Below, piece by piece: positions 3,001-21,560 of a stretch of DNA of 64,000 bases. The first letter of the stretch is position 1, and every line of letters starts with the position of its first letter. Where the stretch lies: positions 32,471 through 96,470 of the IMG/VR virus record IMGVR_UViG_3300045988_119023, one strand, 5' to 3'. This DNA is from a virus. The notes under the pieces are model-generated. The model worked only from the letters and a program-made list of their open reading frames with translations, made no database searches and was not told where the DNA came from. A program made the position numbers and the translations under genes.

Positions 3001-3035
3001 GGTTGATTTCTGAAGATAAGATTAGGAATAGATAA
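21..3035 (+). CDS. Large virion-associated protein (1004 aa), function unknown, possibly tail or receptor-binding. The frame is open to the window start, so it is likely 5'-partial or GTG-initiated at 21.
   Basis: Long uninterrupted ORF with no in-frame stop back to nt 3. Sits in a block of co-oriented giant genes and is followed by a hairpin terminator. Confidence 0.5.
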   Translation: MNIYPNYPYNDLSQDQYNYTSGKRDEFISHPFDKGGNVWYSFCSPDIYFNKPELPNEVCIDGFQRGMSVGSFVPVEDHPKWTILGPAAYTMAASLAAVESSATIAAMIAEELQIRAQSGYIGGSAGLTGGGFLTNLSVAMLFSSMVSTISQTLAKGPILYGKYRYDWLNTFINNGPRRNHAWYYTSVGLYNSMIGITDQDKYERNFARGLSSVKYIKSGVYPMMDASMSSKWGTGRNDNEGRFLFVNNIDRESSLFLSFGDPGEKGDGKSKYLLEYPNYVYNYDSSRIDDSVIAGSDVVAGRTFEQSKTVSYICSPYMRLMRYRPDQYGQIEDIKWISIGGCGFFTNEKKLMFGGDTVITRFSLKRKFPVFYNSAFGIGDMIPFPYMDYRNVGYPRYFVNYDTGEDALETIDNERFNSWTSSNKGRYAFYPNRKSLYELNGDTSGRYVNGRFYTWFYGIPQFLVESEINCNFRLEGPQPHELFYPKVGDFVWWTQEKNVSIHRDNDYKISPIYSSRMTLTPNVLPATYERRFYDCAYQRPNGVIWSRADVSENSQTDPWLTYKPMDYHEFPTSNGKLIHMKRIESDQILVRFEDQVSLHNAIDVIKERTSPGQAEMGTGGLFASRPLEYNTTDLGYSGTQSTEIISSEFGHFWVDTKRAQVFMTDPNGRNLKELSVGIRHWLKRHLPFKILRYGITNILTGTEMTEEDTDNKFIGLGLSLGWDNRYKRILITKKDYIPVKNPAYYKYDGGRFLYNDTEISLKDERYFKDVSFTIGYSCLKQEWISYYSFCPDYYIEQQQYFQTGINFPALDEEGGLWSHLLTNKSFQTFYGTTYPFILEVPIKEKYNGSTLASVEYELDARKYVDDVNYTLDRKVGLDTITIYNDTNNSGEIHLVPEEKNNLAQRISYPKIVGDHTEVLDTEVYRRHKLNDFFNRVDDDRSETPIWIKDDNDINKSVNSDALNFRRSWLDRLRGSWMLMRIKKVISNRKIIFQWLISEDKIRNR

Positions 3036-4034: not shown

Positions 4035-4448
4035 ATGAAACAGGTATCGTATAAAAATGATATATACCCATACAACATAAGGGTATTGCTTGGAGCAGAT
4101 GAAGAGTATATAGTAAAGACATTTGCCAACTTAGAAGTAGAAGATCAGAGCTGGGATGGATGGACTGATGATTATGGTGGCAGAACTATTTTTGTAGGAA
4201 ACCGAACCAATCACAGGAAAGAAATATGTTTCTTGTTTCATTCGCTGTCTGACATGGATGTAAAAACCATAGGACATGAATGCCTTCACGGTCTTTCTAT
4301 TTATTGTAAGTATCTTAATATGGATTACAGTTTTGAAGCCGGAGGAGATGAGCATGCCGCTTTCCTGATGGGATGGTTAGTTGATAAGGTTTGTGATGCT
4401 TACCATAAGTTTAAGAAGGAGGAGGAAAAAGATGACAAAGAAGAATAA
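4035..4448 (+). CDS. Small protein with an HExxH motif (putative zinc metallopeptidase-like). The track start at 4005 is probably too early.
   Basis: HECLH motif in TIGHECLHGLSIY with a downstream DEH. A TAtcTTTG promoter-like element lies at 4008-4015. The gene sits immediately upstream of the lysin gene and overlaps it. Confidence 0.4.
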   Translation: MKQVSYKNDIYPYNIRVLLGADEEYIVKTFANLEVEDQSWDGWTDDYGGRTIFVGNRTNHRKEICFLFHSLSDMDVKTIGHECLHGLSIYCKYLNMDYSFEAGGDEHAAFLMGWLVDKVCDAYHKFKKEEEKDDKEE

Positions 4449-6792: not shown

Positions 6793-6947
6793 TGCGATTT
6801 CGTGAGGGATGGAACTATCATCGCCTTGGTTGGACGGAACAGACCTACGTACTTTCACTGTCCTGACAGGCATGGGCGCCCGTCTCGCCTACTCCCTGCC
6901 TAATTCTCCACTGGCTACCTAATATAACTATTAACGTCACTCCATCA

Positions 6948-7119
6948 CCTATCTCCCTTCAGTCGATAGGTTCAGTCGTTTTTAAATATTATAAGTTCTT
7001 TCGCATCGTTCCCTTCGGTCACGATACTCAATCTTTTAACACAATTAGGCGAACAATACAATGACGGAAAAAGTAATTTGTCAATCCGTTCACTCACTTA
7101 ACTCCCTTCGGTCGTTAAG
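6948..7119 (+). repeat. Three related stem-loops with an identical 11-nt loop, TCCCTTC(A/G)GTC, and covarying stems.
   Basis: Hairpins at 6948-6970 (CCTATC/GATAGG), 7005-7025 (ATCGT/ACGAT) and 7097-7119 (CTTAAC/GTTAAG). The flanks are also similar (GTCACTCC / GTTCACTCAC). They lie in a 650-nt non-coding gap. Confidence 0.6.
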
Positions 7120-7402
7120 TTCATTCACTGTAAACAATTATATGAATAAATGGTAAAGTATATAAAATAATATAAATGATATAATGGGTAAGATCATTGA
7201 AAATGGTCTTAATATTAAGGAAAACGGAGACTATTCATAGGCGTAGTTTTAATTCAAGATTTGTTGTCCCACCTCTGAAGGTCAGGCGGTTACGTTCAGA
7301 ACCGTTTTCCCGTCTCTTATCCAAACCGTCATAAAACAAAAAACCTTGTATCCTATTTCTCTCAAACCGGATACAAGGCCGTGCATTTTCTTATTTGAAC
7401 AT

Positions 7403-8464: not shown

Positions 8465-8517
8465 TTTTTAAACGTATCCCATAACGTTGGATTTTCTCGT
8501 TCGTTTCTCTTATCTTT

Positions 8518-11334
8518 GTGAAAAAAGATAGTATGAGATTACGAATCATAAAAAATCGTCCGGTATTCGCTCCTGGTGGCAGTGTTCAGGATGTTACACA
8601 ACAGGCTGATACGACATCTAATCCATATATTGATATGGACATGTCTAATGTTCCTGGTATGAGTGAGATAAATTCGGAAATAGATACGATGGAGGCAGGA
8701 TTTGACAATATTATAGGTCCTGACTATTCTACTATAAAAATGCAAGAACCTTCTATTCCGACTATGAATGTAAGTAATAACAATACGTTCGATCCTAAGT
8801 CTATGCCTAAAGGAACTATTGTTAGTGTTGATAAAGAAGAAAATCAATCAAATGAAAAGCGATCACAAGATGGGAATCCTCTGGATCCTATGACTGCTCC
8901 TTATTATTCTCCTGATCTTGGTGGTCGAGCTCAAATGTTCGGTACAAGCCTTGGCCGTATAAGAGCCGGTAATAAGGTCGGTGCTAATGTAGCACAGGCT
9001 GCTTTTTCTGGATTGAGTCTTGGCATGGGTCTTGCTCGTAATATCATGGGAGCTTCATCTGCTGCGTATGCAGCCAGCAGAGACGAGCAGGCAGCGAGGG
9101 AAAAACTTGCCAAGGAGCGTCGTCAGCAATTCATCAAGTGGGAACGTGAAGGTGGTGGTGTGAATTTAGGTAACGGTCAGAAGATGGATACGTCTGATAT
9201 GACCGGCGAATATATTTATCCTCTTCCCAAGTCTATGGAAGATGCTGCGAATGTAGAGATAGAGAAAGGCGAGTACGTGCTGACTCCTGACTCCGTAGGG
9301 CCTATGGAAGCCAAAGGAAACAGACATGAAAATGGTGGCACTCCGGTTGATTTGCCAGAGGCTTATATTGTTTCCGATTATCGTAAGATAGATGACGAGT
9401 TTGCCTCTTACGTTAGAGAAAATTATGGTATTAAGGCAACGTCAAAAGATACGTATGCTACACTCCTTGATCGATATAAGAAGAAGATTGGTTTGTCTGA
9501 TAAGTACGAAGATCAGGAGCGTGTATATAAGAGATTAGAGAAAAATGAAGATGTAAAAGACAAAAACACATCTAATCTTAATGCTTCTATTCTTTCCAAG
9601 TACGTCAATGAAAACCAGAAAGAGATAGACGAGCTTGAAGCACAATTTCGTTCTTTCGCTGAAATCGTTTATGGCAAACAGGAAGAATCTAAGCGTAACG
9701 AGAAGATGGATGCTTTTTTCAGGGATGGCGGGGTTGTTGATCTGAATCAGGTAAAGAAACAAGCTAAGGCTTTTAATATTGCAGAATCAGATGCTAAGAA
9801 CTGGATATATGACGAGTATGTTAAGCAAACCAGAAAAATGGCTGAAGGTGGACCTACTCAGAAGGAGCTGGAGGAACTTAGAAAGAATGCTATCGGCTAC
9901 AATAAGCTTATCAATCAGTTATTTGGACGAACTCTTAATATGACTGTATCTGATGTTAGTGGTCGTGAGCAGATTCTTAATCCTGATTCCAGTGTCAATG
10001 CCAACCAGAATCTCCAACATAGAAGCAATTTAGGATACGGCAGGGTAAATGATAAGGCGGTGTCTAATTTGCTCGACATAAACCGATGGGCTAACAAGTA
10101 CAATACGGATGGTGATTTTGATACAGAAGGTTTCCAGAAAGGATACAACAGGCAATTAAATGCATTGTGGGCGTTAGCTGATGTAGGCGCTATTACGAAT
10201 GCTGATGCAGCCAAGAAATTCAGAGATGAATACGGATTCTGGGGCCAGGACGCCGGAAGCTACGGAAGGAATCAGGCTTATAATTCATTTGCCGTAGATG
10301 ATAAGTTTGGTCAGACAACAGCTACTCGTTCTTATTATGGGTTGGACGTTGTTTCGGCAGAGCAAAAAAGATTGTTAAACGAAAAAGGGATAAAGAATTA
10401 TGTTGACTTATTTGGTGATAAATCTGATGCCGCTAAGAAGATTCTGGGCTCCGATTATAATAAGTTTGTTGCTTTAAGAGATAGTGGGTTAATGCCGGAA
10501 ATAGACTTCGTTCTTGAGTCTGTTAAACCAGAAATGAAGCCTATTGAGGCCGGTCCCATAGCACCAGGCCTTACACCGCCTAAGATTGGATCTCCTGGAA
10601 GGGTAGAGGTAAAACCGAAAGCAAGTACGCCTACGACTGCAACCGACACCGATACAGAGGAGGTGGTTGAAGACAACGGACCTAAAGGGCAGGGCAGACC
10701 GGCGGCGTTCGGTCCTATCTTCCCGGAGATGCTGAGAACGCTCGATACAGGCTTGGAGATAGAAGGTCTGGAAAGACATCAGGCTCCGAGAATAGACCCG
10801 GTTCTGCAATCTGCTGATCAGTATATCAACGAGCTCAATCGTGCGACATCGGCTCAGTTGGACGCAGTAGGTGACGTGCCCGACTCCCAGCGCTCCGCTA
10901 TTTTGGCTAATATGAACGCCATAGCCGGAAGCAATATAGCCAAGTACATTAACGAAGTAAATTTCAATAACGCAAGGCAAATAAACGAAGCTGATAGATT
11001 CAATGAAATGGCTTATGTTCAGACAGACGATAAGAACATAGCGGAAAGGCAACGTTATGAATCTGGATTATTGAAGGCTATGGCTATAAGGGATGAAAAT
11101 CTTGCTCGTTATTATGATAGCATAAACAGCGAAATACAGAATAAGTTCAATGTTCGTACATCGTTGAATACCATAGCTTCCATAGCTCCGAATATGAGAA
11201 TGCTTCCAAGTGGCCAAATTATTTACGTTCAAGGTAATCAGGATGTGATGAATATGGGTGATTATTCTACACCTTACTTGAGAAGTTTAAATGAAGAAGA
11301 TGACGAAAATAAAAGAAGAAGGAGGACCAAATAG
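8518..11334 (+). CDS. Large virion protein (938 aa), function unknown (cargo or ejection protein candidate).
   Basis: Long ORF. A TAtcTTTG -7-like element lies at 8509-8516. The stop overlaps the start of the next giant gene. Confidence 0.5.
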   Translation: MKKDSMRLRIIKNRPVFAPGGSVQDVTQQADTTSNPYIDMDMSNVPGMSEINSEIDTMEAGFDNIIGPDYSTIKMQEPSIPTMNVSNNNTFDPKSMPKGTIVSVDKEENQSNEKRSQDGNPLDPMTAPYYSPDLGGRAQMFGTSLGRIRAGNKVGANVAQAAFSGLSLGMGLARNIMGASSAAYAASRDEQAAREKLAKERRQQFIKWEREGGGVNLGNGQKMDTSDMTGEYIYPLPKSMEDAANVEIEKGEYVLTPDSVGPMEAKGNRHENGGTPVDLPEAYIVSDYRKIDDEFASYVRENYGIKATSKDTYATLLDRYKKKIGLSDKYEDQERVYKRLEKNEDVKDKNTSNLNASILSKYVNENQKEIDELEAQFRSFAEIVYGKQEESKRNEKMDAFFRDGGVVDLNQVKKQAKAFNIAESDAKNWIYDEYVKQTRKMAEGGPTQKELEELRKNAIGYNKLINQLFGRTLNMTVSDVSGREQILNPDSSVNANQNLQHRSNLGYGRVNDKAVSNLLDINRWANKYNTDGDFDTEGFQKGYNRQLNALWALADVGAITNADAAKKFRDEYGFWGQDAGSYGRNQAYNSFAVDDKFGQTTATRSYYGLDVVSAEQKRLLNEKGIKNYVDLFGDKSDAAKKILGSDYNKFVALRDSGLMPEIDFVLESVKPEMKPIEAGPIAPGLTPPKIGSPGRVEVKPKASTPTTATDTDTEEVVEDNGPKGQGRPAAFGPIFPEMLRTLDTGLEIEGLERHQAPRIDPVLQSADQYINELNRATSAQLDAVGDVPDSQRSAILANMNAIAGSNIAKYINEVNFNNARQINEADRFNEMAYVQTDDKNIAERQRYESGLLKAMAIRDENLARYYDSINSEIQNKFNVRTSLNTIASIAPNMRMLPSGQIIYVQGNQDVMNMGDYSTPYLRSLNEEDDENKRRRRTK

Positions 11335-14300
11335 TGGCTTCACAGTATAGTATTTTAAGGCAATATGCCCCGTATGTTAGTCCTTACAACATAGATCTTG
11401 TTAAGGACGTCATGATGTACAAACAGCAGAAGGTTGATGCTGCTCGTGAAAAGATCTATACCCAGGTAGATTATCTTATGGGTCAAGAGATAGATAAGCC
11501 TGAAGCCCGCGCTTATATGGAAGATAAGATGTCAGGTGTGATTGCTAACATCAATCAAAAATTCAAAGGCGTGGATCTTTCTTCTGATGGTGTTACGAGA
11601 GCTATACAAGGAGAGATCAGTTCGGTGTTAGATGATACGGTCATTAATGCTATTGCCGGTACAAAAGAAGGCAAGAGGGTTATGAAGGAAATAGAATCTA
11701 TAAAACAGAATCATCCTGAACTTTATTCTCCTATTAATGAATGGCATGCTTTGGATCCTTATTACAAATGGAGGTCAGATGGTAAGGCGGGATCAAGGTT
11801 GGGAGGTCTTCATTATTCTCCTTATGTCGATTATACTAAGGAGATAAATAAGCTGGTTAGTGACTTTAGGAAAAACAACGAAGGCAAGAAGATTCAGACA
11901 ACAGAATATGATGTTAAAGGTAATCCTACTGGTGGAATCATAGAAGTCAACGTAGATGAGCTTACTGATTCCCAGATAAGGAATTTTGTGTCTGCTAACT
12001 TATCTGAAAACATGAGGAATCAGATGAGAATAGAAGCATCATACATGGCAGCCACCAATCCAGTGTTCAGTAATCCGGATTTGGTTAGTCAATATATTGG
12101 GTCTTATGTCGAAAGATACGATAGGCACATAGGAGCATTGGAAGCAAAAAAGAAATCAGTAGGGGATAATAAGGATATTATTGATCGTATTGACAGCCAG
12201 ATACAGGAAGCTAAAAATCAGAAAGCAGAAGCCAAGAGGGAGGCAGATATGATAATAGCTTCATCAGATCCGGTAGCGGCTGCTAATTTTGTTGTTACCA
12301 ATAATCTTTTCGATAAGATGACTGATGCATGGAGATACGACAATACAAGTTTTGAAAGGAAGAAAGACGATCTTTATTTTGCAAGGTTGGCAGAGGATAG
12401 GGCTCAGCAAAAGTTTTTGACTGATAATGCCAAGTCTATGGTTGAAATATCATTGGCGAATGAGCAGCTTGCTCAGGCTAAGATTGAAACCGAATACATG
12501 CGTACTTACGGTTCCAAGATGGGCACTGAAAGCTCATCCGGAGGCACAAGAGGAGCAGGCGGTGTAGGAGTGCCGATGGCTCCTATGGACGGGCCTACGG
12601 CTATCAATTCTGGAACGGGTAAGATAGGATCTGTTAATTTGGCTAATATCCCTTATGAACAACTCACATCTTCTTCCACAGAGCGTAGAGCAAATTTATT
12701 GAAATTATATAATTCATTATCTCCTACAGACAGAAGCAATATCGTTGCAGCATCATACGAAGAAGAAAAAACTGACCCAGGATTGTATGCTAATATGACT
12801 CCTGAAGAACGGATATATTCTTATTTAAAAAATAATGGAGGTCAGAAAAACGGATATTTCGGACAAGGAAATAACAGATTGTCTGAAGCTTATGATGCTT
12901 TACTTCTTTCTGATTCTAAGGCAAATGGAGCTGCAAAGGCTATAAATAACATAACTGATTATCAAATAGATAATATAGTTACTAAAAAAAATAAGGATAT
13001 TATCAGGAAAGTTCGTAATGCTAAGTTTATGAAAGGAAATTCTTTTATGAATCTTACCAATACAGATGATAAGGCTGGAGCCTTCCTGCTCGCCACAGCC
13101 ATAACAACTGGTGTATCTGATGCCGTAGGGTTCAGAGAATACATGATGGATCCTTCAAGAGGAATAGATATTCTTAGTGCTATATCTCCGTCATTAGGAG
13201 CTAAGGCGAGTGCCGGCAAGTTGGGGAAAAACATATCTGATGCTATTACAAGCGAGGATAATGGTTCTTCTACTGGTACGTTGGCTCTTATTAATGGAAT
13301 GAAGAAACTGAATGGCGATCCTGATTTTAATATATCTGATTATATGACCATAGATAAGGACGGTGATATAGATCTAAAAGATTATCAGGAAGGGGAGCCA
13401 TTGACTATTACCCAGCTAAGATATGCTGAGAAAAATAGTAGGGTATCTGATATGATAGCGGGTCAGATGCAGGATGAGATAAAAATGTCTGTATCTCCTG
13501 ATCAGATTTCTGATAAGTTATCTCAGTATCATTACCTTGATTCTTACAAAAGATACAATTGGAATGCCGATTCACCGGAAAAGTCTTTACAGAAGGCTCA
13601 GTTTAGAAGATTGTCTGGTTACATGGCAGGAAAGGTAAACAATCTGGATCCTACTGCTATTAATGCCATTAATATGGATGCCGAGATAGATAATGGCACC
13701 GTTAGAAGATTCTTGACTGCTCAAGTAGGTTCCGGTGAAAATTCTTATGTTACAGAAAGGGTTGAGATTACGAATGACGAGCTTCTTAAGGCGGGTATAG
13801 ATCCTTCGGTCGAGGAGCGCAATTATCCGGTAGATGGCTACAAATCAAGTTTTGAAACCTGTGATTTTGTAGATACCGGAAAGAAGGAAGGTTATTCTTA
13901 TGATAAGTATCTTATACGTAATGGCCTTCCTCGTTTGGCTTCTAAGGCTGATGTTAAGAATGATCTTTATGATATAGTAAAGGTTCATGGTTCTTACCTT
14001 AAGCCAGAAGAAATGAATGTTGTTAAAGCCCTTGTTGATAATTTTATTGACATGTCTGATAATATATCAGTTCAGTTGGAGGGAATGGACGATAGGGGTT
14101 CAAGAGAGGTAGCGGTCAATTTCTATGACAAAAGGACTAAAAATTCTAAAAATCCTGCATTGTTGTTCTCGGATTTTGTTCCTTTGGATCCAGGTAATGA
14201 TGAGTATGCGGATTACTGGAATAGCATTCACCAGAAGTGTCCTCAGTACTTCTTTGTAAAATACGTGAAGGAGGCTGTTCAAGAACGTCTTGATCAGATG

Positions 14301-14393
14301 AGGGATCCGTATATGAGAGGAATAAATATCACGCCCAACATGAATGACAAGTTTAGTAAGTTGAACGATTTTTTGCAGAAAATTTATGGCTGA
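11334..14393 (+). CDS. Large virion protein (1019 aa) carrying a DxDGD motif. It is a candidate catalytic subunit or domain of a crAss-like virion RNA polymerase.
   Basis: TIDKDGDIDL at nt 13353-13367 matches the DxDGD metal-binding signature of double-psi beta-barrel RNAPs. The GTG start overlaps the upstream stop (taGtg). Confidence 0.4.
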   Translation: MASQYSILRQYAPYVSPYNIDLVKDVMMYKQQKVDAAREKIYTQVDYLMGQEIDKPEARAYMEDKMSGVIANINQKFKGVDLSSDGVTRAIQGEISSVLDDTVINAIAGTKEGKRVMKEIESIKQNHPELYSPINEWHALDPYYKWRSDGKAGSRLGGLHYSPYVDYTKEINKLVSDFRKNNEGKKIQTTEYDVKGNPTGGIIEVNVDELTDSQIRNFVSANLSENMRNQMRIEASYMAATNPVFSNPDLVSQYIGSYVERYDRHIGALEAKKKSVGDNKDIIDRIDSQIQEAKNQKAEAKREADMIIASSDPVAAANFVVTNNLFDKMTDAWRYDNTSFERKKDDLYFARLAEDRAQQKFLTDNAKSMVEISLANEQLAQAKIETEYMRTYGSKMGTESSSGGTRGAGGVGVPMAPMDGPTAINSGTGKIGSVNLANIPYEQLTSSSTERRANLLKLYNSLSPTDRSNIVAASYEEEKTDPGLYANMTPEERIYSYLKNNGGQKNGYFGQGNNRLSEAYDALLLSDSKANGAAKAINNITDYQIDNIVTKKNKDIIRKVRNAKFMKGNSFMNLTNTDDKAGAFLLATAITTGVSDAVGFREYMMDPSRGIDILSAISPSLGAKASAGKLGKNISDAITSEDNGSSTGTLALINGMKKLNGDPDFNISDYMTIDKDGDIDLKDYQEGEPLTITQLRYAEKNSRVSDMIAGQMQDEIKMSVSPDQISDKLSQYHYLDSYKRYNWNADSPEKSLQKAQFRRLSGYMAGKVNNLDPTAINAINMDAEIDNGTVRRFLTAQVGSGENSYVTERVEITNDELLKAGIDPSVEERNYPVDGYKSSFETCDFVDTGKKEGYSYDKYLIRNGLPRLASKADVKNDLYDIVKVHGSYLKPEEMNVVKALVDNFIDMSDNISVQLEGMDDRGSREVAVNFYDKRTKNSKNPALLFSDFVPLDPGNDEYADYWNSIHQKCPQYFFVKYVKEAVQERLDQMRDPYMRGINITPNMNDKFSKLNDFLQKIYG

Positions 14394-17300
14394 CAATAAT
14401 ATAGATAGATATAATCCTGCTGCTAAAACCACTTACGAAGATGTGGCAAGGCAAAGGAAATTAGCCGAAGAAGAGAATTACACTCCGGCTACATTACCAG
14501 AGACGACAACGCCTCTGGTTCCTAATTATATGCCTGGTGAAGGTGTGTATGCCCAACCTAAATTTCCAGATTACGCATCAAGGATAGCTGCTGCCGAATA
14601 CGAAGAGCCGTATATAGCCAAGGAGATAAGCAACAGCTACTCGGAGGCACTGGCTCGTAACAGCTACAGGGGGGCTACACCTGCCCCGCCGCCCCTTAAT
14701 CCCTATGGACCGAAGGTAAGTATCCGTGAAAGTCATCAGATGGGTAATGATGGGGTATGGCGTACAAAATATCCCAACTATATTCCGGGTATAAATAATG
14801 AGGATTATTATGCCAGGAGACAGAGCGGATGGAGTAAGTTTTGGAATGGTGTAGGCAAATTCGCTTTAAAGTCCGCATTGTACGGCGCACAAGGAGTTGT
14901 GTCACTGCCTGACAAACTTATCAATATGGCATCTGAGGGAAGTTACAAAGCTGCGTTAAATACTAACATGGATAAGTTTGTAGGTGATCTTGACCAGCAA
15001 ATAGACATGCTTCTTCCTCATTATTACAAGAAAGAGGTAGAAGATTATAATTTCGGCCAGAAGCTTTTTAATGATACCGGTAATTTCTTATGGAATGATG
15101 TCCTTGGTAATGGTATGTCTTTTACCGTAGGAGCTATGATATCAGCGTACATGACCGGAGGACTTGGAGTTGGATCATTGGGCAATATAGGTGCTAAATT
15201 AGGAGGAAGAATCGGAGCTAAGTTGGCAGCAAGGCAAGCTGCCAATAGGGGCATAGGAAGCCTTAAAAGCGTGTTTAACGACTATGTAAGAAAAGGAGTT
15301 GCCACCGGAAGAAATGTAGGGGAGGCGGCTAAGACCATGACGTTGCTGGCTACCAGTGCCGGATTCGAGTCATCGGTTGAAGCAAATTCTTTTATGAAGC
15401 AATCCGAGTCTGATTTCAAGGATTATTATCGTAAGATTTATGGTCGTGATCCCAATGCAGAGGAAATGGCTGTTTTTCGTAATTCTAATGCTGATGTAGG
15501 TAGTGCTATATTTGCCGCCAATATGGGTATAGTAGGATTATCCAACTGGCTTCTTTTTGGTAAGTATATAGGGTTAGGAGGCAAGGCTATACCTGGTTTG
15601 GAAAAGAAGCTCAACAAGCATTTATTTGGATTAGGGACGGAAGTTGCGAAGCCGGGAGAGATGGCTATTAAAATAACCAATCCCAATATAGGACAGAAGA
15701 TAGCAGGCAATGTTTTCAATATCATGAAAAGACCGGTATCTGAAGGCTTATGGGAAGAAGGATCTCAAGGTGCTGTTCAGAATACGGCTGAGGAATATGT
15801 TAAGTCAAGATATGATAATGTCGCCATGAACGGAGCCGTTGATGTTCTTGATGCTATTTCTGAAGGATTTAAAAAGCAATATACGTCTAAAGAAGGATGG
15901 ACTGAAATAGGAATCGGTGCTATTATCGGTTCTTTGTTTGGTATGAGAGAAGGCTTCTTTGGGGTGAAAGAGTATAGTAATAGTCAGATCTTGCTGGAAA
16001 GGCAAGTGAATGAATATAACAAAGCATCTTCTAATCTTAACACGGCGGCTTTGAATACGTTGAAAAAGTCAATGAGTTTAGGGCCTCAAGTTCGTTCCGA
16101 TGCTCAGTCTATGACCGGCAAGGAGCTTGATGATGCAATGTTTGAAAAGATGTCGATTGACAACCAAATGGGAACCTTAGAGGATTCGGCTGAAAATTTC
16201 AGGCAGATGGTTGATATGATGCCTATTTCGGAAATAGCCGAAGCCAACGGAATGTCTTTGGAAGAGGCAAAGAAATACAAGGATTCTATTATTGATAATT
16301 ATAATAATCGTCTTTCGGATTTCAGATCTGCCCAGAGTTTTGCCGAAGATCTTATAGGTGATGACTCTAAGATTGAATTTAGAAAATACGTGGCTCGTAA
16401 TGCCTTCCTTGGTCTTCAATCAGAATCAAGAATGAAAGACATAGCTTCTGTCATAGAAACGCTTTCAGGACAGCCTCGCGTGGCAGATGCGCTAAGTACG
16501 TTCTCCCGGCTGTCGGACAGAGCAAGGGAGCGGGCGATGGCTATCCGTGGCATACGGTCAAGGATAGAAGAACTTGAATCCGAAATAGAAGATCTTGCTA
16601 CCCGCCCTCGTAACGTAGAAGGGAAAGATCCACAAGCTGAATCCATACAACGAAAAACCAAAGAATTGGAAAGCCTTAGAACCAATTATAATAATTCGTT
16701 GTATGAGTTATCAACGTTAATAGGAAAAGAGTTTTCGATAGAAGAGCTGGTAAGTAAAACCGAATCTGTTTTATCTTCTCCTCTTTCTCCCATAAGTTCA
16801 CAAGATGTGATAGAAGCCTATGATACGCTTGTGGCTTTTGATGATTATTTTAATGTAAAATCAAGACAGGAAAAGAAGTTTACAGCCAAAGACAAAGCCA
16901 TGAGATCCTTGGTAAATGAATACCGAAGGAGTTTGGTGGACTATAGGAATATGAATAACTTCTTGTCTAAGATGCTTGATAAAAGATTCTTAGCTGAGGA
17001 AAACAGGGGATTTTCAAAAGCGCTGTCTTCTCTATGGTCTACTCCTTATAAAGGGGATGACAAGGTTCCTGATTTTGCAGAGCCTAATAAAGTTGGTGAA
17101 TATGACACTGATGAGATAGTAGATCAAGCTGTGTCAGAAGGTAAGATTTCGGAAGACGAAGCTTGGACTATCAAGGCTTTTATGCATGCTCTTGATAAAG
17201 TAAGGGAAGATAGGATGAAGGAAGCAGAAGACGATATAAAAGAGTCACCGCTTACGGAGTCTGTATCGGATGAAGATTATGAGGCTGCTATGGACAATCC

Positions 17301-20300
17301 TATTATGGTTCCGGCCGTAAGGCAGTCTATAATTGATAAACTATATACAGGTAATGCCGATCTTCTTACTGCGAGAGAAAAAGATGTGTATGATAAATAT
17401 AAACAAGATTTTGATGATTATGTATCGTCTTTGGGTGACAGTCCTGTTAATCTCATAAAATCATTATCTGAAAGGGCTGATAGGCTTACAAGTCCAAGAT
17501 CTGTGTATGAGGAAAACAAGACCGTTATTGATATGGCTAAATCAAATTTGGAACCAGATCAAAGGCAGGAACTTGATGATGCTATTTCTTCGTATGTGGA
17601 TATAATGAACAGACGGGACAAAGGGGAGAAAGTTGACGAAGATAAGCTTGCCGATTCGGTATTTACCATAGAAGATCTTGGCCAGGTTGGAAACATCACA
17701 GATCTTCTTCCTTATATCGAACAAAACAGGATTATTGATAAAGGTCGTATCTCTGAATCTACGTTGAGTAATTTTGGGGAGGATGATACCAATATAGATT
17801 CTCTTGTAAATGAGTTAGATGAATCCGATAATACGCCTGGAGCTAACATAGATAGTGCCCAAAATCCAGAGACGTTGATGGTTAGAAGAATATCCAACGA
17901 TGGCAACGAAAGGTATGAAATTGCGGGTCTTAGAGCCGATAAATTTATATCTTCTATAAAATCATTGGTTCCTATTCAAATAAGCTCTGAAACGAACGCT
18001 AATGGTACTAAAAGGTATTCTCTTAACATAGGTGGAGAAACGGCTACTATAATTGAACTGCCTTATCATGCGAGATGGTCTATAGACAAAGAATCGGCTC
18101 GTGTTCTTAACCGTTACACAGATGTGTCTATTCAGGACGTGGGTAATTCCTATTCTTTGGTTTATAAGCGTCTTGATTCAGATGAGTTGGTTCCGTACAG
18201 AACAGGTGTCGGATTCGGAGAGAATGAGGTAGATAAAATAGATCAGGAAGCATTATCTTCTTTGAAAAAAGGAGATAAGGTTAATCTCGAAATAGATGTA
18301 AATGATACTTATAATCAGTCTCTTTTTGCCGAATACAATGATGCTGTTCAGTCCGGCGATAAAAAAAGAATAGAATCTGCTGAGAATAAACTGGTGTCCA
18401 ATATGGTTATCAAGGTCATGAGTGGGAACAGATTCGTTTCTGTTGTAAAAGCTGATACAGGAGGCATAGATGGTATAAGTAAAATAAGAAGAACGGCTTT
18501 TAACAAGTGGAAGAAGGACGCCGGCCGGTCGGCTACCATCGGCGTCGGCACGCATGTTGTTGCCCAGACCCTTCCCGGAAGACCGGTGTTTAACATGAAG
18601 GTGAACGGTCAAGGATATGGCCAGGTAGAAAATCTCCCCATTACCGAAAAAGGTGCTGAAAAAGTATCTGATGTCGGATATGTATTAAATGGTAAAGTCG
18701 TGCTTAAGAACGGATCTAAATACACAGGCTTCCCATTTGCTTATTCTATATTAAATGACAAGGGGAATAATTACAAAAATGTAAGAGTTCCGGTAGTTGT
18801 CATCAAAGGTAAAAACGGTCTTAACTATCTTTTCCCGGTTAGCCTACGTTCTGTAGAATCAGAGGAAGGGCAGAAATGGATGTCTTTTATAGATATGTTG
18901 CTTGAATCTGGTGATTCTGAATTGCTACAGATAGGTCAAGATGACATACAAGATCTCAATGCGTATCTAACCAAGTTAGGCCTTGATCCGGCTTCATATC
19001 AGGTATCGTATTTGAATCCTATTTCAGGGCTTAGGAAAGCTCGTGAGGCTATAGAAAAATTATCTATGGTTCCTGATGTTGTTAAGTGGGTAGAAGATGG
19101 AAGTAGGAGTGTGAAAGATATTGTGACGTCTGAAGTAGAATCTGGAATAGATTTCGAAGGTGAGATGTTTGTTGCTCCTAAGATCAGGATTCAGTTTGGT
19201 AAATCATCTTCCAGACCCAAATCACTTATAGAGGATGAACTTCCTTTCTCCGATGAGGGTAAGACCGTTACTTCCAAGGAAGATGTGGATATTTACGAAG
19301 AGGAAATGCCAGAGGAAGACCCTGTCCGGGGGACTCGGCCGGCGCCACCAGCTCAGCCGGCTCCTGCGGCACAAGCTGCGCAGTCTTTATCTGGCAAGAA
19401 GCGTACCTCCAGGAAAAACTTCTCTCTTATGTTAAACGAAATAGAATCTCATATAGAAAAAGAAGGATTGCCGCCTTATGCTAATATTTTTGATTTTATA
19501 GCAAGGAAGATTGTAGGAGGCGATTTGAGGTTTCTTCGTGAGAGAGGTAATCCAAAAAGTCTTAAGGAGGAAATGGGATTAGAACCTAAAGGAACAGTAG
19601 GTGATAAAATATCCACTCCTTCTAAAAAGGGAGGTAAGACCTTAGAAGAATATGTTTCTTGGCTTCGTTCTCAAACGGATCAGGTAGTAGCGGATTATGT
19701 TGGTCCAAGATCTGACGAACAAATTATATCAGAGTTGAAAAACTTTTTGAAATATATTAATTTTGTTCCAAGCAAGGCTTTGAATTATTCTCTTAGAGTC
19801 AATGGCATGGATACCCTAAAAGAATATGGCACAAAAGAGGAAGTAGAAAAAATGGAATCTGACATCAATAGTTTGGTTTCTGAAGTTTTGCCTACGGTAG
19901 ATAATCAAACTGTAGAAGATGTTTCTACTGCAATAGAATCAAATAACTTGCCTGCCATATGGGAGCCTATGGAAAGTCTTGATATGACAAACGAGGAAAA
20001 AATAGAGTTTTTGAATAACGTAGCAGATTTCCTTAGTGGCATTCCAGAGTATGATGCTGTTGTGGAGTCTATAGAGTCAGAATCGGATAATATTTTAAAT
20101 GATGGAAAAGAAGGAAGTGCAGAAGGCGGTGCAGTACGCACTGAGGAAGATGGCGATAAAAAGGGAGATGGAGAAAGCAAAGGACAATCCAGAACAAATG
20201 TCGAAGTTAAAGGAAATGTCGAATTACCTGGATCTAAAGAAGGAAGAGTAGATAACTATAAGAAGAACGGAGATAAGTTCTCTGATATTGCCGAAGTTAC

Positions 20301-21027
20301 TTTATGGTTGCTTAGAAGGGCTGCCGGCATAACCTCTATCCCGGAAGGAGAAGAGGTTTATGTAGAGGGGGATGAAGTTAATAGCATTATGACCGATATG
20401 GAATCAAGGTACGGGATAGACACCATCAACCACTCGCATACGACTAAGGCTATAAGGGATCTTAACGGCGTATCAGGTTATAAAGTAGAATACGGCTTAA
20501 CCTTTTTAACATACGATCCTTTTATTAGGATATCCAATCCAAGGAAAGAATCTAAGACTGCAAAAAACGAACCTCGTATATCCGAAGAGCCGCTTACTCA
20601 CATATCAAGGGTAACAACCCCTTATTTCCTGTACGGCGGTGATGAAGCATATACATCTGTTCCGGCTAAGGTAGAACCTATACCAGAGAAGATAATGGGT
20701 CGTAATGGCATTAAATTTGGTATGAGCGTAGTCGAGCTGACCAAATTAGGGTACAAAAAAGCTGGTGGAAACTGGATATACAAATTCTACATGAACTCAG
20801 GTGTTTATGATTTGTATAATATCAGTACCGGCGAAGCGTTTAGAGCAAAACCGGATCTTGGAGTTAAGATAAGTTCCAGCGCATTCATCCGTTCTTTATC
20901 TCAATCTGGTAGAAAAATACAAAATATGATGAGTAACATGAGCCAGGAAGAGATAGATAGAAATAAGAATCTTGTAGAAGGTTCTGATAATTCAGATTCG
21001 ATAAATGAGTTAAATAAGGAGTGTTGA
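14386..21027 (+). CDS. Giant virion protein (2213 aa), function unknown. Has a Gly-rich hydrophobic segment and Pro/Ala-rich linkers.
   Basis: 6.6-kb ORF whose start overlaps the upstream stop by 8 nt. Contains GGLGVGSLGNIGAKLGGRIGAKLAARQAANRG and PAPPAQPAPAAQAAQ. Confidence 0.5.
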   Translation: MADNNIDRYNPAAKTTYEDVARQRKLAEEENYTPATLPETTTPLVPNYMPGEGVYAQPKFPDYASRIAAAEYEEPYIAKEISNSYSEALARNSYRGATPAPPPLNPYGPKVSIRESHQMGNDGVWRTKYPNYIPGINNEDYYARRQSGWSKFWNGVGKFALKSALYGAQGVVSLPDKLINMASEGSYKAALNTNMDKFVGDLDQQIDMLLPHYYKKEVEDYNFGQKLFNDTGNFLWNDVLGNGMSFTVGAMISAYMTGGLGVGSLGNIGAKLGGRIGAKLAARQAANRGIGSLKSVFNDYVRKGVATGRNVGEAAKTMTLLATSAGFESSVEANSFMKQSESDFKDYYRKIYGRDPNAEEMAVFRNSNADVGSAIFAANMGIVGLSNWLLFGKYIGLGGKAIPGLEKKLNKHLFGLGTEVAKPGEMAIKITNPNIGQKIAGNVFNIMKRPVSEGLWEEGSQGAVQNTAEEYVKSRYDNVAMNGAVDVLDAISEGFKKQYTSKEGWTEIGIGAIIGSLFGMREGFFGVKEYSNSQILLERQVNEYNKASSNLNTAALNTLKKSMSLGPQVRSDAQSMTGKELDDAMFEKMSIDNQMGTLEDSAENFRQMVDMMPISEIAEANGMSLEEAKKYKDSIIDNYNNRLSDFRSAQSFAEDLIGDDSKIEFRKYVARNAFLGLQSESRMKDIASVIETLSGQPRVADALSTFSRLSDRARERAMAIRGIRSRIEELESEIEDLATRPRNVEGKDPQAESIQRKTKELESLRTNYNNSLYELSTLIGKEFSIEELVSKTESVLSSPLSPISSQDVIEAYDTLVAFDDYFNVKSRQEKKFTAKDKAMRSLVNEYRRSLVDYRNMNNFLSKMLDKRFLAEENRGFSKALSSLWSTPYKGDDKVPDFAEPNKVGEYDTDEIVDQAVSEGKISEDEAWTIKAFMHALDKVREDRMKEAEDDIKESPLTESVSDEDYEAAMDNPIMVPAVRQSIIDKLYTGNADLLTAREKDVYDKYKQDFDDYVSSLGDSPVNLIKSLSERADRLTSPRSVYEENKTVIDMAKSNLEPDQRQELDDAISSYVDIMNRRDKGEKVDEDKLADSVFTIEDLGQVGNITDLLPYIEQNRIIDKGRISESTLSNFGEDDTNIDSLVNELDESDNTPGANIDSAQNPETLMVRRISNDGNERYEIAGLRADKFISSIKSLVPIQISSETNANGTKRYSLNIGGETATIIELPYHARWSIDKESARVLNRYTDVSIQDVGNSYSLVYKRLDSDELVPYRTGVGFGENEVDKIDQEALSSLKKGDKVNLEIDVNDTYNQSLFAEYNDAVQSGDKKRIESAENKLVSNMVIKVMSGNRFVSVVKADTGGIDGISKIRRTAFNKWKKDAGRSATIGVGTHVVAQTLPGRPVFNMKVNGQGYGQVENLPITEKGAEKVSDVGYVLNGKVVLKNGSKYTGFPFAYSILNDKGNNYKNVRVPVVVIKGKNGLNYLFPVSLRSVESEEGQKWMSFIDMLLESGDSELLQIGQDDIQDLNAYLTKLGLDPASYQVSYLNPISGLRKAREAIEKLSMVPDVVKWVEDGSRSVKDIVTSEVESGIDFEGEMFVAPKIRIQFGKSSSRPKSLIEDELPFSDEGKTVTSKEDVDIYEEEMPEEDPVRGTRPAPPAQPAPAAQAAQSLSGKKRTSRKNFSLMLNEIESHIEKEGLPPYANIFDFIARKIVGGDLRFLRERGNPKSLKEEMGLEPKGTVGDKISTPSKKGGKTLEEYVSWLRSQTDQVVADYVGPRSDEQIISELKNFLKYINFVPSKALNYSLRVNGMDTLKEYGTKEEVEKMESDINSLVSEVLPTVDNQTVEDVSTAIESNNLPAIWEPMESLDMTNEEKIEFLNNVADFLSGIPEYDAVVESIESESDNILNDGKEGSAEGGAVRTEEDGDKKGDGESKGQSRTNVEVKGNVELPGSKEGRVDNYKKNGDKFSDIAEVTLWLLRRAAGITSIPEGEEVYVEGDEVNSIMTDMESRYGIDTINHSHTTKAIRDLNGVSGYKVEYGLTFLTYDPFIRISNPRKESKTAKNEPRISEEPLTHISRVTTPYFLYGGDEAYTSVPAKVEPIPEKIMGRNGIKFGMSVVELTKLGYKKAGGNWIYKFYMNSGVYDLYNISTGEAFRAKPDLGVKISSSAFIRSLSQSGRKIQNMMSNMSQEEIDRNKNLVEGSDNSDSINELNKEC

Positions 21028-21560
21028 GTATGAGAAGGAGATTTTTTAATGCTGCGGATAATTTTGTGGGAGGATGTTATAATAAGTTATCTAATGAAGA
21101 TATAAAAAGGCTTGGAGGAAAAAGACCTTATGTATGTCAGTTTAATAAAATTCATATACATATAGGGCCTGTATTAAAAGATTATGATTCCGAAGAAAGT
21201 TATATAATGTTTAATAGTGATTGGAATCATGGTGGTTATGAATCTATGGTTTATCATCATAGCAATAATGGCATTTTTATATTAGGTGAAAACAAAATTG
21301 GTAATATAGAAGATCATATACAGGATCTAACATATTGGTACGAATATGATCCAAACATTAATGAAAATTATTGTTATTGTTATTATGAAGCTGATAACAG
21401 CGGAAATGCTATTAAGTTGAGCCGTGAGTTTGGTGATGTTTGCACTGTTTTTAATATTCCCAGTTTGAAAGTTACTACTCTTCGTGATGGCGGTTTGAGT
21501 TTCCCAGAGATTTATATAGAAGGAGTTTGGGATTCGTCATTGTATAAGTCGGTTTTATAA
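21021..21560 (+). CDS. Hypothetical protein. The likely true start is the ATG at 21027.
   Basis: ORF overlapping the stop of the 2213-aa gene. Confidence 0.45.
   Translation: MLSMRRRFFNAADNFVGGCYNKLSNEDIKRLGGKRPYVCQFNKIHIHIGPVLKDYDSEESYIMFNSDWNHGGYESMVYHHSNNGIFILGENKIGNIEDHIQDLTYWYEYDPNINENYCYCYYEADNSGNAIKLSREFGDVCTVFNIPSLKVTTLRDGGLSFPEIYIEGVWDSSLYKSVL

What the first reader, a model, noticed from the sequence alone, without database searches (positions are those of the whole stretch)
8518..21027. Translationally coupled block of three giant genes. The 1019-aa protein carries a DxDGD motif and is a candidate virion-packaged RNA polymerase.
Genes for the 938-, 1019- and 2213-aa proteins overlap start-to-stop (taGtg at 11334, ATGgcTGA at 14386). 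This is typical of co-assembled virion components. The middle protein contains TIDKDGDIDL at nt 13353-13367, matching the DxDGD catalytic signature of double-psi beta-barrel RNAPs. crAss-like phages are known to package a giant RNAP of this kind, homologous to QDE-1 and YonO, that is sometimes split across adjacent ORFs. If this holds, the block encodes the ejected early-transcription machinery.
Basis: partly seen in the sequence, partly recalled or inferred. Interest (0 to 1): 0.6.

Follow-up and report, generated by a model that had tools for sequence, protein, structure and literature searches.

The report
Phage cargo genes, not an RNA polymerase
The three overlapping giant genes are real and most likely encode proteins packed inside the particle of a human-gut crAss-like phage. 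The "polymerase motif" in the middle protein is an unconserved hairpin turn, and no polymerase catalytic core is found in the block, the window or its sequenced near-identical relative.

Summary
ORFs 8518-11334, 11334-14393 and 14386-21027 exist, overlap start-to-stop as described, and DKDGD sits at aa 674-678 of the 1019-aa protein.

- The three Asp are lost in orthologues that are still 58-65% identical.
- A DxDGD appears in 12% of shuffles of the block.
- The AlphaFold model puts the motif in the turn of a two-strand hairpin within a helical protein.
- Neither fold nor profile searches link the protein to phi14:2 gp66.
- A gp66 catalytic-core HMM that finds unseen crassvirus RNAPs at E=1e-121 or better finds nothing in the window or in the near-identical published genome crAssE-Sib.

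The window is an epsilon-group crAss-like phage, 95.6% identical to crAssE-Sib. The block lies downstream of the muzzle and tail-lysozyme genes. Its Cellulophaga phage phi4:1 orthologues are recorded as virion proteins by mass spectrometry. The 2213-aa protein is the orthologue of crAss001 gp47 / phi14:2 gp67.

Best reading: cysteine-poor internal cargo or ejection proteins.

Seen in passing: terminal cysteines conserved across crassviruses suggest that the 2213-aa, 752-aa and 2138-aa proteins are linked head to tail.

The parts
21..3035 (+). 3' part of the muzzle (tail-tip) protein gene. It marks the start of the cargo region. The ORF runs off the window's left end in sense.
   Evidence: tblastn: 97.8% identity over 1004 aa to the crAssE-Sib muzzle protein and 36% to phi17:2 gp043. 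Annotation.
4381..6687 (+). Tail lysozyme with two lysozyme domains (768 aa).
   Evidence: Pfam Phage_lysozyme (aa 37-163, 9e-18) and Phage_lysozyme2 (aa 496-646, 1e-21). Only aa 488-768 match the crAssE-Sib copy.
8518..11334 (+). 938-aa protein (probable true start ATG 8533). Epsilon-group internal virion (cargo) protein with no cysteine. It sits where crAss001 has cargo protein C1/gp45, but homology to gp45 is not detectable.
   Evidence: ORF. phrog_36695 'virion structural protein', 2e-37. BLASTP 2e-29 to phi17:2 gp041, whose phi4:1 twin gp040 is a virion protein by MS/MS. hhalign to gp45/gp46 has prob <=1.3%. Cys count 0.
11320..11336 (+). Coupling junction: AGGAGG (11320-11325), stop TAG (11332-11334) sharing its G with the start GTG (11334-11336).
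   Evidence: The same 1-nt overlap is called in L088, L089 and L090 and between g068/g067/g066 of phi14:2.
11334..14393 (+). 1019-aa protein. Epsilon-group internal virion (cargo) protein, mostly alpha-helical, with a conserved N-terminal ~340 aa. It is not an RNA polymerase.
   Evidence: phrog_32131. 354 homologues. Invariant residues cluster in aa 3-345. AF2 pLDDT 72. Foldseek PDB gives no hit below E=0.2. BFVD best named hit is phi17:2 gp040, 3e-18. phi4:1 gp039 is a virion protein by MS/MS. Family Cys frequency is 0.085%.
13353..13367 (+). DKDGD (aa 674-678). A lineage-specific acidic turn of a beta-hairpin, not a catalytic motif.
   Evidence: Orthologues read GEGGN (65% id), NKNGD, DKNGN, KKGGY, NDKGV; only G677 is near-invariant. 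DSSP gives strands 671-673 and 679-681 flanking the loop. Chance occurrence is 12%.
14386..21027 (+). 2213-aa protein. Orthologue of crAss001 gp47 / phi14:2 gp67 ('RNAP-associated' cargo). It has a glycine-rich conserved N-terminal domain (aa ~126-528 = nt 14761-15969). Its only cysteine is the last residue (codon 21022-21024).
   Evidence: BLASTP 1e-8 to g067 and 4e-6 to gp47. hhalign 97.1% and 98.1%. phrog_32390, 4e-56. Invariant C2213. Termini. phi4:1 gp038 is a virion protein by MS/MS.
21021..21560 (+). 179-aa accessory gene overlapping the end of the 2213-aa gene. It is present in some relatives (153-192 aa) and absent in L088 and phi17:2.
   Evidence: No family hit.
21587..23845 (+). 752-aa protein in the genomic slot of the virion RNAP (gp66). 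It shares only the N-terminal ~95-aa cargo domain and both terminal cysteines (C5, C751) with gp66, and has no catalytic core. Its crAssE-Sib orthologue was published as 'DNA-dependent RNA polymerase'.
   Evidence: Foldseek to 6vr4_A, E=6.3e-5. hhalign 96.3%, aa 3-96 vs gp66 1-93. The same domain matches the p2138 family (92.1%) and gp49 (87.8%). 802 cluster representatives; none of those >=1000 aa among the 146 newly returned sequences has a DFDxD motif or a core-HMM hit. PMC11054128 Table S1.
34121..40537 (+). 2138-aa protein. Orthologue of crAss001 gp49 / phi14:2 gp65 (RNAP-associated protein), starting MVSTC. It is separated from the block by a ~10-kb insertion that includes an antirepressor gene.
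   Evidence: BLASTP 6e-20 to gp49. hhalign 99.1% to gp49 and 91.9% to g065. tblastn to crassvirus 'putative RNA-polymerase subunit' genes. Contiguous with the block in phi17:2. KilAC antirepressor at 24555-25448.

Best explanation
The window comes from an epsilon-group crAss-like phage of the human gut. Genes 8518-21027 are part of the late operon that follows the muzzle (tail-tip) and tail-lysozyme genes.

They most likely encode three large, cysteine-poor internal virion proteins (the 1019-aa model is largely helical). I read them as cargo or ejection proteins that are packed in the capsid and tail lumen and expelled through the tail ahead of the DNA. Tight start/stop overlap keeps their synthesis coupled.

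The 2213-aa protein is the orthologue of crAss001 gp47 / phi14:2 gp67. The 938- and 1019-aa proteins are epsilon-specific occupants of the positions held by cargo proteins C1/C2 (gp45/gp46) in crAss001.

The 1019-aa protein is not an RNA polymerase. Its DKDGD is an unconserved hairpin turn. This phage lineage has no detectable two-barrel catalytic core. The slot of the virion RNAP is held by a 752-aa protein that keeps only the N-terminal cargo domain and the terminal cysteines of gp66.

Shown: gene structure, orthology, non-conservation of the motif, and absence of the catalytic core. Taken from the annotation of cultured relatives: presence in virions. Inferred by analogy with crAss001, T7 and P22: ejection and conduit formation.
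For: Identity of the phage:
- 95.6% nt identity over 97% of the block to crAssE-Sib, described as an epsilon crAss-like phage in PMC11054128.

Context:
- Muzzle gene and tail lysozyme lie upstream on the same strand.
- The same gene order is found in phi17:2, L088, L089 and L090.

Virion presence:
- BLASTP of the five window proteins (938, 1019, 2213, 752 and 2138 aa) to the phi17:2 copies gives E values from 2e-7 to 3e-84.

The 2213-aa protein equals gp47/gp67:
- (prob 97-98%).
- gp47 is a mass-spectrometry-detected cargo protein in crAss001 (PMC10172136).

Not an RNAP:
- The motif is not conserved, and chance occurrence is 12%.
- The model shows a hairpin in a helical protein.
- No RNAP appears in Foldseek PDB or in PDB profile searches. 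hhalign to gp66 gives prob 0.2%.
- The gp66 family has an invariant GSDFD[IV]DK.
- The core HMM finds cr118_1 gp14 (3e-139) and cr56_1 gp39 (2e-121). It finds nothing better than E=0.44 in the window, the whole crAssE-Sib genome, the phi17:2 block or L088-90. No D[FY]D[IVG]D occurs in any frame.
- Yutin 2021 independently reports that the DxDxD-containing transcription block is missing in the epsilon group (PMC7886860).

Cysteine depletion:
- 0, 2 and 1 Cys in 938, 1019 and 2213 aa, against 1.58% in other window ORFs.
Against: - Presence in the virion and ejection are not shown for this phage. They rest on annotation of relatives that are 21-30% identical.
- No homology of the 938- or 1019-aa proteins to crAss001 gp45/gp46 could be found, so calling them C1/C2 analogues rests on position only.
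- No hydrophobic transmembrane segment was found in any of the three by a Kyte-Doolittle scan, unlike crAss001 gp45.
A very divergent enzymatic domain there cannot be excluded by fold.
- The 1019-aa model has only moderate confidence at the motif (pLDDT about 70).
Confidence: 0.78

Rival explanations
1. One reading: the 1019-aa protein is a virion-packaged two-barrel RNA polymerase whose DKDGD loop binds the catalytic magnesium.
For: The motif is present. The gene lies in the region that carries the virion RNAP in other crAss-like phages.
Against: - The Asp triad is lost within the family at 58-65% identity.
- crAss-like RNAPs use GSDFD[IV]DK.
- The model shows a hairpin turn in a helical protein.
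- No RNAP hit appears by fold, profile or core HMM.
- Chance occurrence of the motif is 12%.
Confidence: 0.02
2. A cryptic, extremely divergent RNA polymerase is hidden elsewhere in the cargo set, without the canonical Asp triad. Candidates are the unmodelled C-terminal ~1700 aa of the 2213-aa protein, the extra ~870 aa of the 2138-aa protein relative to gp49, or the 752-aa protein together with a partner.
For: - The gp47-like, gp66-N-terminal-like and gp49-like partners are all retained in gene order.
- The crAssE-Sib authors call the 752-aa orthologue an RNAP from an HHpred hit (PMC11054128).
- Foldseek matches its model to 6vr4_A at E=6e-5.
- crAss RNAPs evolve very fast (PMC7886860).
Against: - There is no D.D.D at all in the 2213-, 752- or 2138-aa proteins.
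- The core HMM, which crosses crassvirus families at E=1e-121 or better, finds nothing.
- hhalign of all five families to the gp66 core or full profile shows only the N-terminal ~95 aa. That domain is also present in the non-polymerase gp49 family.
- Of the 802 representatives of the 752-aa module, none of those >=1000 aa among the 146 newly returned sequences has the motif or a core-HMM hit.
Confidence: 0.08
3. The three proteins are external or architectural virion parts (tail barrel, fibres, decoration) rather than ejected cargo.
For: GenBank and PHROG call them only 'structural protein'. No transmembrane helices were found.
Against: - They lie after the muzzle gene together with the gp47, gp66-like and gp49 homologues, which are internal cargo in crAss001.
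- Extreme cysteine depletion contrasts with the disulfide-stabilised crAss001 tail.
- The 1019-aa model is helical and partly disordered.
- Ring, hub and fibre genes are annotated elsewhere in crAssE-Sib.
Confidence: 0.1

Closest known systems
crAss001 gp47 / Cellulophaga phage phi14:2 gp67 ('RNA polymerase-associated' cargo protein)
   Same: The 2213-aa protein shares the N-terminal ~400-aa glycine-rich domain (hhalign 98.1% and 97.1%). It has a similar size, sits just upstream of the RNAP slot, and has a single cysteine at the extreme C-terminus.
   Different: Outside the N-terminal domain no alignment is found. Here the downstream partner is a 752-aa protein without a catalytic core instead of a 2200-2400-aa RNAP.
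crAss001 cargo proteins C1 (gp45) and C2 (gp46); phi14:2 gp68-gp70
   Same: The position is the same, between the muzzle/lysozyme genes and the gp47 orthologue. Genes are tightly overlapped, cysteine is absent or nearly so, and the proteins are expected inside the virion.
   Different: There is no detectable sequence or profile homology (prob <=1.3%). The proteins here are about twice as long as gp46. No transmembrane helix like that of gp45 is found. Bayfield et al. also report no gp45 homologue in the epsilon group.
phi14:2 gp66 / crAss001 gp50 virion RNA polymerase (two-barrel; relatives QDE-1, YonO)
   Same: The genomic neighbourhood is the same. The 752-aa neighbour (not the 1019-aa protein) shares gp66's N-terminal ~95 aa and both terminal cysteines.
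   Different: GSDFD[IV]DK, both DPBBs, the bridge helix and the trigger loop are undetectable anywhere in this phage. The 1019-aa protein has no similarity at all.
Cellulophaga phages phi4:1 / phi17:2 (Lightbulbvirus) gp041-gp036 block
   Same: These are true orthologues of all five cargo proteins in the same order. They are recorded as virion proteins by MS/MS.
   Different: Identity is only 21-30%. The block is contiguous there, whereas the gut phage carries a ~10-kb insertion (antirepressor and other genes) before the gp49 orthologue. The phi17:2 gp038 protein has 517 aa against 752 aa here.
Ejection proteins of other podoviruses (T7 gp14/15/16, P22 gp7/16/20, N4 gp50-52)
   Same: The proposed role is the same: large internal proteins expelled before the DNA to bridge the cell envelope. 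This is an inference, following PMC10172136.
   Different: No sequence or fold relationship was found.

Membership tests
Two-barrel (DPBB) RNA polymerases, crAss-like virion RNAP clade (gp66/gp50; QDE-1, YonO) - tested on the 1019-aa protein | Metal-binding Asp triad (DFD[I/V]D in crAss-like, DxDGD elsewhere) conserved across orthologues | tested here: not met
   All 36 gp66 homologues plus gp50, cr118_1 and cr56_1 carry GSDFD[IV]DK. In the 1019-aa family the three Asp vary already at 58-65% identity.
Two-barrel (DPBB) RNA polymerases, crAss-like virion RNAP clade (gp66/gp50; QDE-1, YonO) - tested on the 1019-aa protein | Motif located in a loop of a six-stranded double-psi beta-barrel | tested here: not met
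   The AF2 model shows a 5-residue turn between two 3-residue strands in a helical region, with pLDDT about 70. Foldseek against PDB gives no RNAP and a best E of 0.23.
Two-barrel (DPBB) RNA polymerases, crAss-like virion RNAP clade (gp66/gp50; QDE-1, YonO) - tested on the 1019-aa protein | Second DPBB, connector, bridge helix and trigger loop in the same or an adjacent ORF | tested here: not met
   The 741-column core HMM finds nothing better than E=0.44 in any ORF of the window, crAssE-Sib, the phi17:2 block or L088-90. Positive controls score 3e-139 and 2e-121. hhalign of all block families to the core has prob <20%.
Two-barrel (DPBB) RNA polymerases, crAss-like virion RNAP clade (gp66/gp50; QDE-1, YonO) - tested on the 1019-aa protein | Template-dependent RNA synthesis requiring Mg2+ and the Asp triad | not testable with these tools
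   This needs purified protein and D-to-A mutants, as done for gp66 (bioRxiv 10.1101/2020.03.07.982082).
crAss-like virion cargo / ejection proteins (crAss001 C1, C2, gp47, gp49, gp50) | Genes directly downstream of the muzzle gene, same strand, tightly packed | tested here: met
   The arrangement is the same in crAss001, phi14:2 and phi17:2.
crAss-like virion cargo / ejection proteins (crAss001 C1, C2, gp47, gp49, gp50) | Detected in purified virions | not testable with these tools
   This is known only for orthologues: phi4:1 gp035, gp037, gp038, gp039 and gp040 are annotated from MS/MS, and crAss001 gp45-gp50 were detected by MS.
crAss-like virion cargo / ejection proteins (crAss001 C1, C2, gp47, gp49, gp50) | Homology of the 2213-aa protein to gp47/gp67 | tested here: met
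   BLASTP 1e-8 and 4e-6. hhalign 97.1% and 98.1%.
crAss-like virion cargo / ejection proteins (crAss001 C1, C2, gp47, gp49, gp50) | Homology of the 938- and 1019-aa proteins to C1 (gp45) or C2 (gp46) | tested here: not met
   hhalign of family profiles against gp45, against a 7-member gp46 family profile and against g068-g070 gives prob <=1.3%. The only hint is a weak structural hit to a 512-aa cr131_1 protein, E=0.02.
Epsilon-group crAss-like phages (crAssE-Sib, proposed Epsilonunovirus) | Genome-level similarity and shared gene order with described members | tested here: met
   95.6% nt identity over 12.2 kb. Proteins are 94-98% identical. More distant members keep the same block.
EF-hand / DxDxDG-type calcium-binding loop (alternative reading of DKDGD) | Gly at loop position 6, acidic residue at position 12, and conservation of the ligands | tested here: not met
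   Position 6 is Ile679 and position 12 is Gln685. The ligands are not conserved.

The most novel reading that the evidence does not exclude
The cargo proteins of crAss-like phages may be physically joined head to tail through terminal cysteines, by disulfides or a shared metal site, in the order of their genes.

The pattern:
- The gp47 family (here the 2213-aa protein, whose only Cys is its last residue) ends in Cys.
- The middle protein (gp66 RNAP, or here the 752-aa protein) has one Cys at position 3-6 and one at the C-terminus, and usually no other.
- The gp49/gp65 family (here the 2138-aa protein) starts MxxxC.
- Natural fusions of neighbours lack exactly the junction cysteines.

Such a chain would give ordered, thread-like ejection. 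Epsilon phages would keep the chain although its middle link has no polymerase core. That would imply that the so-called RNAP-associated proteins have an RNAP-independent role in delivery, and that epsilon crass-like phages start infection without a virion RNAP.
Probability: 0.35. Interest if true: 0.72.

Novelty: new member of a known kind. Interest (0 to 1): 0.35.

Why it matters
This corrects a tempting motif-based call. It also questions a published label: the 752-aa neighbour in crAssE-Sib is annotated as an RNA polymerase on the strength of an N-terminal domain that non-polymerase cargo proteins share.

The results show that epsilon crAss-like phages, an abundant gut group, keep homologues of the gp47 and gp49 cargo proteins although the catalytic RNAP core is undetectable. 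That sharpens the question of how these phages begin transcription and what the "RNAP-associated" giants really do.

The terminal-cysteine pattern gives a directly testable hypothesis for how giant cargo proteins are ordered for ejection.

Tried and rejected
- Pfam, single-sequence PDB searches and profile PDB searches gave nothing for the block proteins.
- PHROGs holds no family for gp66 or gp50, so it could not serve as an RNAP test.
- A literature search for the GenBank spelling "csAssE" was useless. The paper spells the name crAssE-Sib.
- The search for related loci with the 1019-aa family returned only 97-99% identical loci, which gave no diversity. Diverse loci were obtained through the look-up of encoding contigs instead.
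- The consensus promoter and terminator scan was at shuffle level and is uninformative.
- The visual similarity between the N-termini of the 1019-aa protein and gp46 (…PYVSPY… vs …RPFSY…) was not confirmed by profile comparison and was dropped.
- The greedy hhalign extension of the 752-aa protein over gp66 1-1020 was not upheld at default stringency or with a deeper profile. Only about 95 aa are claimed.
- An EF-hand-like calcium loop for DKDGD was considered and rejected.
- No HExxH (zincin) motif was found in the 2138-aa protein, although gp65 is reported to have a zincin-like domain.
- The final Nature version of Drobysheva et al. (PMC12127119) is not held.
Full report
1. THE OBSERVATION

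- At the first junction, the stop TAG (11332-11334) shares its last base with the start GTG (11334-11336). A perfect AGGAGG lies 8 nt upstream.
- At the second junction, ATGGCTGA (14386-14393) holds the start and the stop.
- A fourth gene (21021-21560) overlaps the end of the 2213-aa gene.
- DKDGD is at aa 674-678 of the 1019-aa protein, nt 13353-13367.

The GTG start is real. Residues 3-24 are invariant in 40 homologues down to 32% identity, and the same 1-nt overlap is called in three divergent relatives. The 938-aa gene more likely starts at ATG 8533.

The motif alone carries little weight. Only 0.13 DxDGD are expected in the block, and 11.8% of shuffles contain one.

2. WHERE THE WINDOW COMES FROM

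The block is 95.6% identical at the DNA level to phage "csAssE-Sib" OR575929. This is the crAssE-Sib phage of Babkin et al. 2024, an epsilon-group crAss-like phage of about 151 kb (PMC11054128). There the three genes are annotated only as "structural protein".

Upstream in the window lie the 3' part of the muzzle gene (97.8% to crAssE-Sib, 36% to Cellulophaga phage phi17:2 gp043) and a two-domain tail lysozyme.

The only cultured relatives are Cellulophaga phages phi4:1 and phi17:2, which Yutin et al. 2021 place in the epsilon group. Their gene order is:
- muzzle, tail protein, gp041 (895 aa), gp040 (974 aa), gp039 (1957 aa), gp038 (517 aa), gp037, gp036 (1914 aa).
- These are orthologues of the 938-, 1019-, 2213-, 752- and 2138-aa proteins of the window, with BLASTP E values of 2e-29, 5e-20, 3e-47, 2e-7 and 3e-84.

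The same block is found in three divergent metagenomic epsilon genomes.

3. IS THE 1019-aa PROTEIN AN RNA POLYMERASE? NO.

(a) Conservation. In an alignment of 40 family members the motif column reads DKDGD only in close relatives (80-97% identical in the alignment). At 65% identity it is GEGGN, at 63% NKNGD, at 60% DKNGN, at 58% KKGGY and at 43% NDKGV. Only G677 is near-invariant. A catalytic triad would not behave like this.

(b) The real signature. All 36 retrieved homologues of phi14:2 gp66, plus crAss001 gp50 and two Suoliviridae RNAPs, carry GSDFD[I/V]DK. Drobysheva et al. state that crAss-like RNAPs have Ile or Val, not Gly, at position 4.

(c) Fold. The AlphaFold2 model built on the 40-sequence alignment has pLDDT 72. 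It is mostly helical, and DKDGD is the five-residue turn between strands 671-673 and 679-681.
- Foldseek against the PDB gives no hit below E=0.2 and no polymerase.
- Against BFVD it finds phi17:2 gp040, proteins of marine virus NIOZ-UU157 and other uncharacterised proteins.

(d) Profiles. hhalign of the family against gp66 gives prob 0.2%. Against the gp66 family and its catalytic core it gives <20%. A PDB profile search finds nothing.

(e) No RNAP-like domain elsewhere. I built an HMM of the gp66-family core (DPBB1, connector, DPBB2, bridge helix, trigger loop; 741 columns).
- It recognises RNAPs it was not trained on: cr118_1 gp14 at 3e-139 and cr56_1 gp39 at 2e-121.
- It finds nothing better than E=0.44 in any stop-to-stop ORF (at least 40-50 aa) of the window, the entire crAssE-Sib genome, the phi17:2 block or the three metagenomic loci.
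- No D[FY]D[IVG]D exists in any frame.

This agrees with Yutin et al. 2021, who report the DxDxD-containing transcription block in all crAss-like phages "except for the Epsilon group".

4. WHAT THE BLOCK IS

Synteny with characterised crassviruses is clear.
- phi14:2 has muzzle g071, g070, g069, g068, g067 (1797 aa), g066 (RNAP), g065, with 1-nt start/stop overlaps.
- crAss001 has gp44 (muzzle), gp45, gp46, gp47, then gp50 (RNAP) and gp49.
- The 2213-aa protein is the gp47/g067 orthologue (BLASTP 4e-6 and 1e-8; hhalign 98.1% and 97.1% over aa 126-528).
- The 2138-aa protein at 34121-40537, outside the finding, is the gp49/g065 orthologue (6e-20; hhalign 99.1% and 91.9%).

Bayfield et al. detected gp45, gp46, gp47, gp49 and gp50 in crAss001 virions. 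They assign them to internal cargo zones and propose that they are ejected, with gp45/gp46 forming the trans-envelope channel. They also note that epsilon phages lack a detectable gp45 homologue.

The 938- and 1019-aa proteins sit where gp45/gp46 sit. I found no homology to gp45, to a seven-member gp46 family profile, or to g068-g070 (prob <=1.3%).

The block proteins share several properties:
- They are acidic, and the 1019-aa model is largely helical.
- They are strikingly poor in cysteine: 0, 2 and 1 Cys respectively. The 1019-aa family averages 0.085%, against 1.58% in the other window ORFs.
- The conserved N-terminal domain of the 2213-aa protein is rich in glycine-zipper-like segments.
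- No classical transmembrane helix is present.

My best explanation is that the block encodes internal virion cargo or ejection proteins made in fixed proportion by translational coupling. Virion presence is taken from relatives, and ejection is inferred.

5. THE SLOT OF THE RNAP

Between the gp47 and gp49 orthologues, where gp66 lies in phi14:2, this phage has a 179-aa accessory gene and a 752-aa gene (21587-23845). The crAssE-Sib paper lists the orthologue of the latter as "DNA-dependent RNA polymerase", from an HHpred hit to gp66 (95% probability, 46% coverage).
- Its AF2 model is good (pLDDT 83). Its only significant PDB match is indeed 6VR4, at E=6.3e-5.
- Profile comparison, even with a 112-sequence profile, supports only aa 3-96 against gp66 1-93 (96.3%, E=1.6e-9).
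- The same N-terminal ~65-85 aa also match the N-termini of the 2138-aa family (92.1%) and of crAss001 gp49 (87.8%). So this is a shared cargo N-terminal domain, not a polymerase domain.
- An exhaustive HMMER search found 802 cluster representatives of the 752-aa module, alone or embedded in proteins of 1000-3072 aa. None of those >=1000 aa among the 146 newly returned sequences has the Asp motif or matches the core HMM.

I conclude that the 752-aa protein is not a canonical two-barrel polymerase. No canonical RNAP is detectable in this lineage. A wholly divergent enzyme in unmodelled parts of the giants cannot be formally excluded; I give that 8%.

6. SEEN IN PASSING: TERMINAL CYSTEINES

- The gp66 family is almost cysteine-free, but 30 of 36 members have a Cys at position 3-6 and another within the last six residues. 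In 24 of 36 these are the only two Cys in 2000-3200 aa.
- The 752-aa module family shows the same pattern: 137 of 146 representatives have both, and 123 have exactly two.
- The upstream gp47 family ends in Cys. This holds for the 2213-aa protein and its five orthologues, phi14:2 g067 and crAss001 gp47, and in most it is the sole Cys.
- The downstream gp49/g065 family begins MxxxC and has no or few other Cys.
- Where neighbours are fused, the junction cysteines are gone. Examples are P0293 (2213-like fused to the 752 module, with its single Cys as the last residue) and Suoliviridae gp47-RNAP fusions of 4461-4946 aa, which have no N-terminal Cys but a Cys at position -3 and are followed by a protein starting MIC.
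- Neither the Drobysheva preprint nor Bayfield et al. mentions cysteines of the cargo proteins, and two library searches found nothing.

A head-to-tail link, by disulfide or shared metal, is the simplest reading. It is a hypothesis, not a result.

7. VERDICT

The RNAP interpretation of the 1019-aa protein is refuted. The "virion-packaged, co-assembled" part is supported by orthology. The block is an ordinary member of a known kind (crassvirus cargo genes) in a phage whose near-identical genome is already public, so the interest of the finding as stated is modest. The RNAP-less cargo chain of epsilon phages and the terminal-cysteine pattern are the leads worth following.

Noticed in passing
window 21022-21024 (last codon of the 2213-aa gene), 21599-21601 and 23837-23839 (Cys5 and Cys751 of the 752-aa gene), 34133-34135 (Cys5 of the 2138-aa gene); also P0155-P0336, L002, L006, L007, L091, L092: Cargo proteins that are otherwise nearly cysteine-free carry cysteines at the termini that face the neighbouring gene. 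The gp47 family ends in Cys. The gp66 and 752-aa families have one Cys at position 3-6 and one at the C-terminus (exactly two Cys in 24/36 and 123/146 members). The gp49/gp65 family starts MxxxC. Natural fusions lack the junction cysteines. This suggests head-to-tail linkage of the cargo proteins. It was not mentioned in the two key papers that could be searched.
   Followed up: partly
window 21587-21880 and 34121-34320; L006 g066, L002 gp49: A shared N-terminal domain of about 65-95 aa (MxxKCxI...) occurs in the 752-aa protein, the 2138-aa protein, crAss001 gp49 and phi14:2 gp66 (hhalign 88-96%). The published 'DNA-dependent RNA polymerase' label of the 752-aa orthologue in crAssE-Sib rests on this non-catalytic domain.
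   Followed up: yes
P0293 (2482 aa): This is a Rosetta-stone fusion. Residues 21-1744 match the 2213-aa family (E=2e-99), followed by the 752-aa module (1716-2425). Its single cysteine is the last residue.
   Followed up: partly
window 23900-34100: About 10 kb of small genes separates the 752-aa gene from the gp49 orthologue. It includes a KilAC antirepressor (24555-25448), and crAssE-Sib annotates a repressor here as well. In phi17:2 the cargo genes are contiguous.
   Followed up: no
window 3036-8517: The region between the muzzle gene and the block differs from crAssE-Sib. The window has no tRNA gene (crAssE-Sib has tRNA-Tyr and tRNA-Lys here) and no Ro60/TROVE gene. An unassigned 250-aa ORF lies at 3172-3924. 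Only aa 488-768 of the lysozyme match the crAssE-Sib copy, so the N-terminal lysozyme domain has been exchanged.
   Followed up: partly
window 9256-9339 (aa 247-274 of the 938-aa protein): An invariant motif, E-x-E-K-G-E-Y ... E-x-K-G-x-x-H-x-x-G-G, is kept from the gut phages to phi17:2. It has no Pfam or PDB match and its function is unknown.
   Followed up: no
L001 35086-41488 (crAssE-Sib 103085-109487): The crAssE-Sib orthologue of the 2138-aa gene is annotated as two overlapping CDS, and tblastn matches it in two pieces. The window has one uninterrupted ORF. This points to a frameshift or an annotation split in the published genome.
   Followed up: no
window ~41000-42000: Cumulative GC skew peaks here, and gene orientation switches from the + strand (structural and cargo genes) to the - strand (replication genes).
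   Followed up: no
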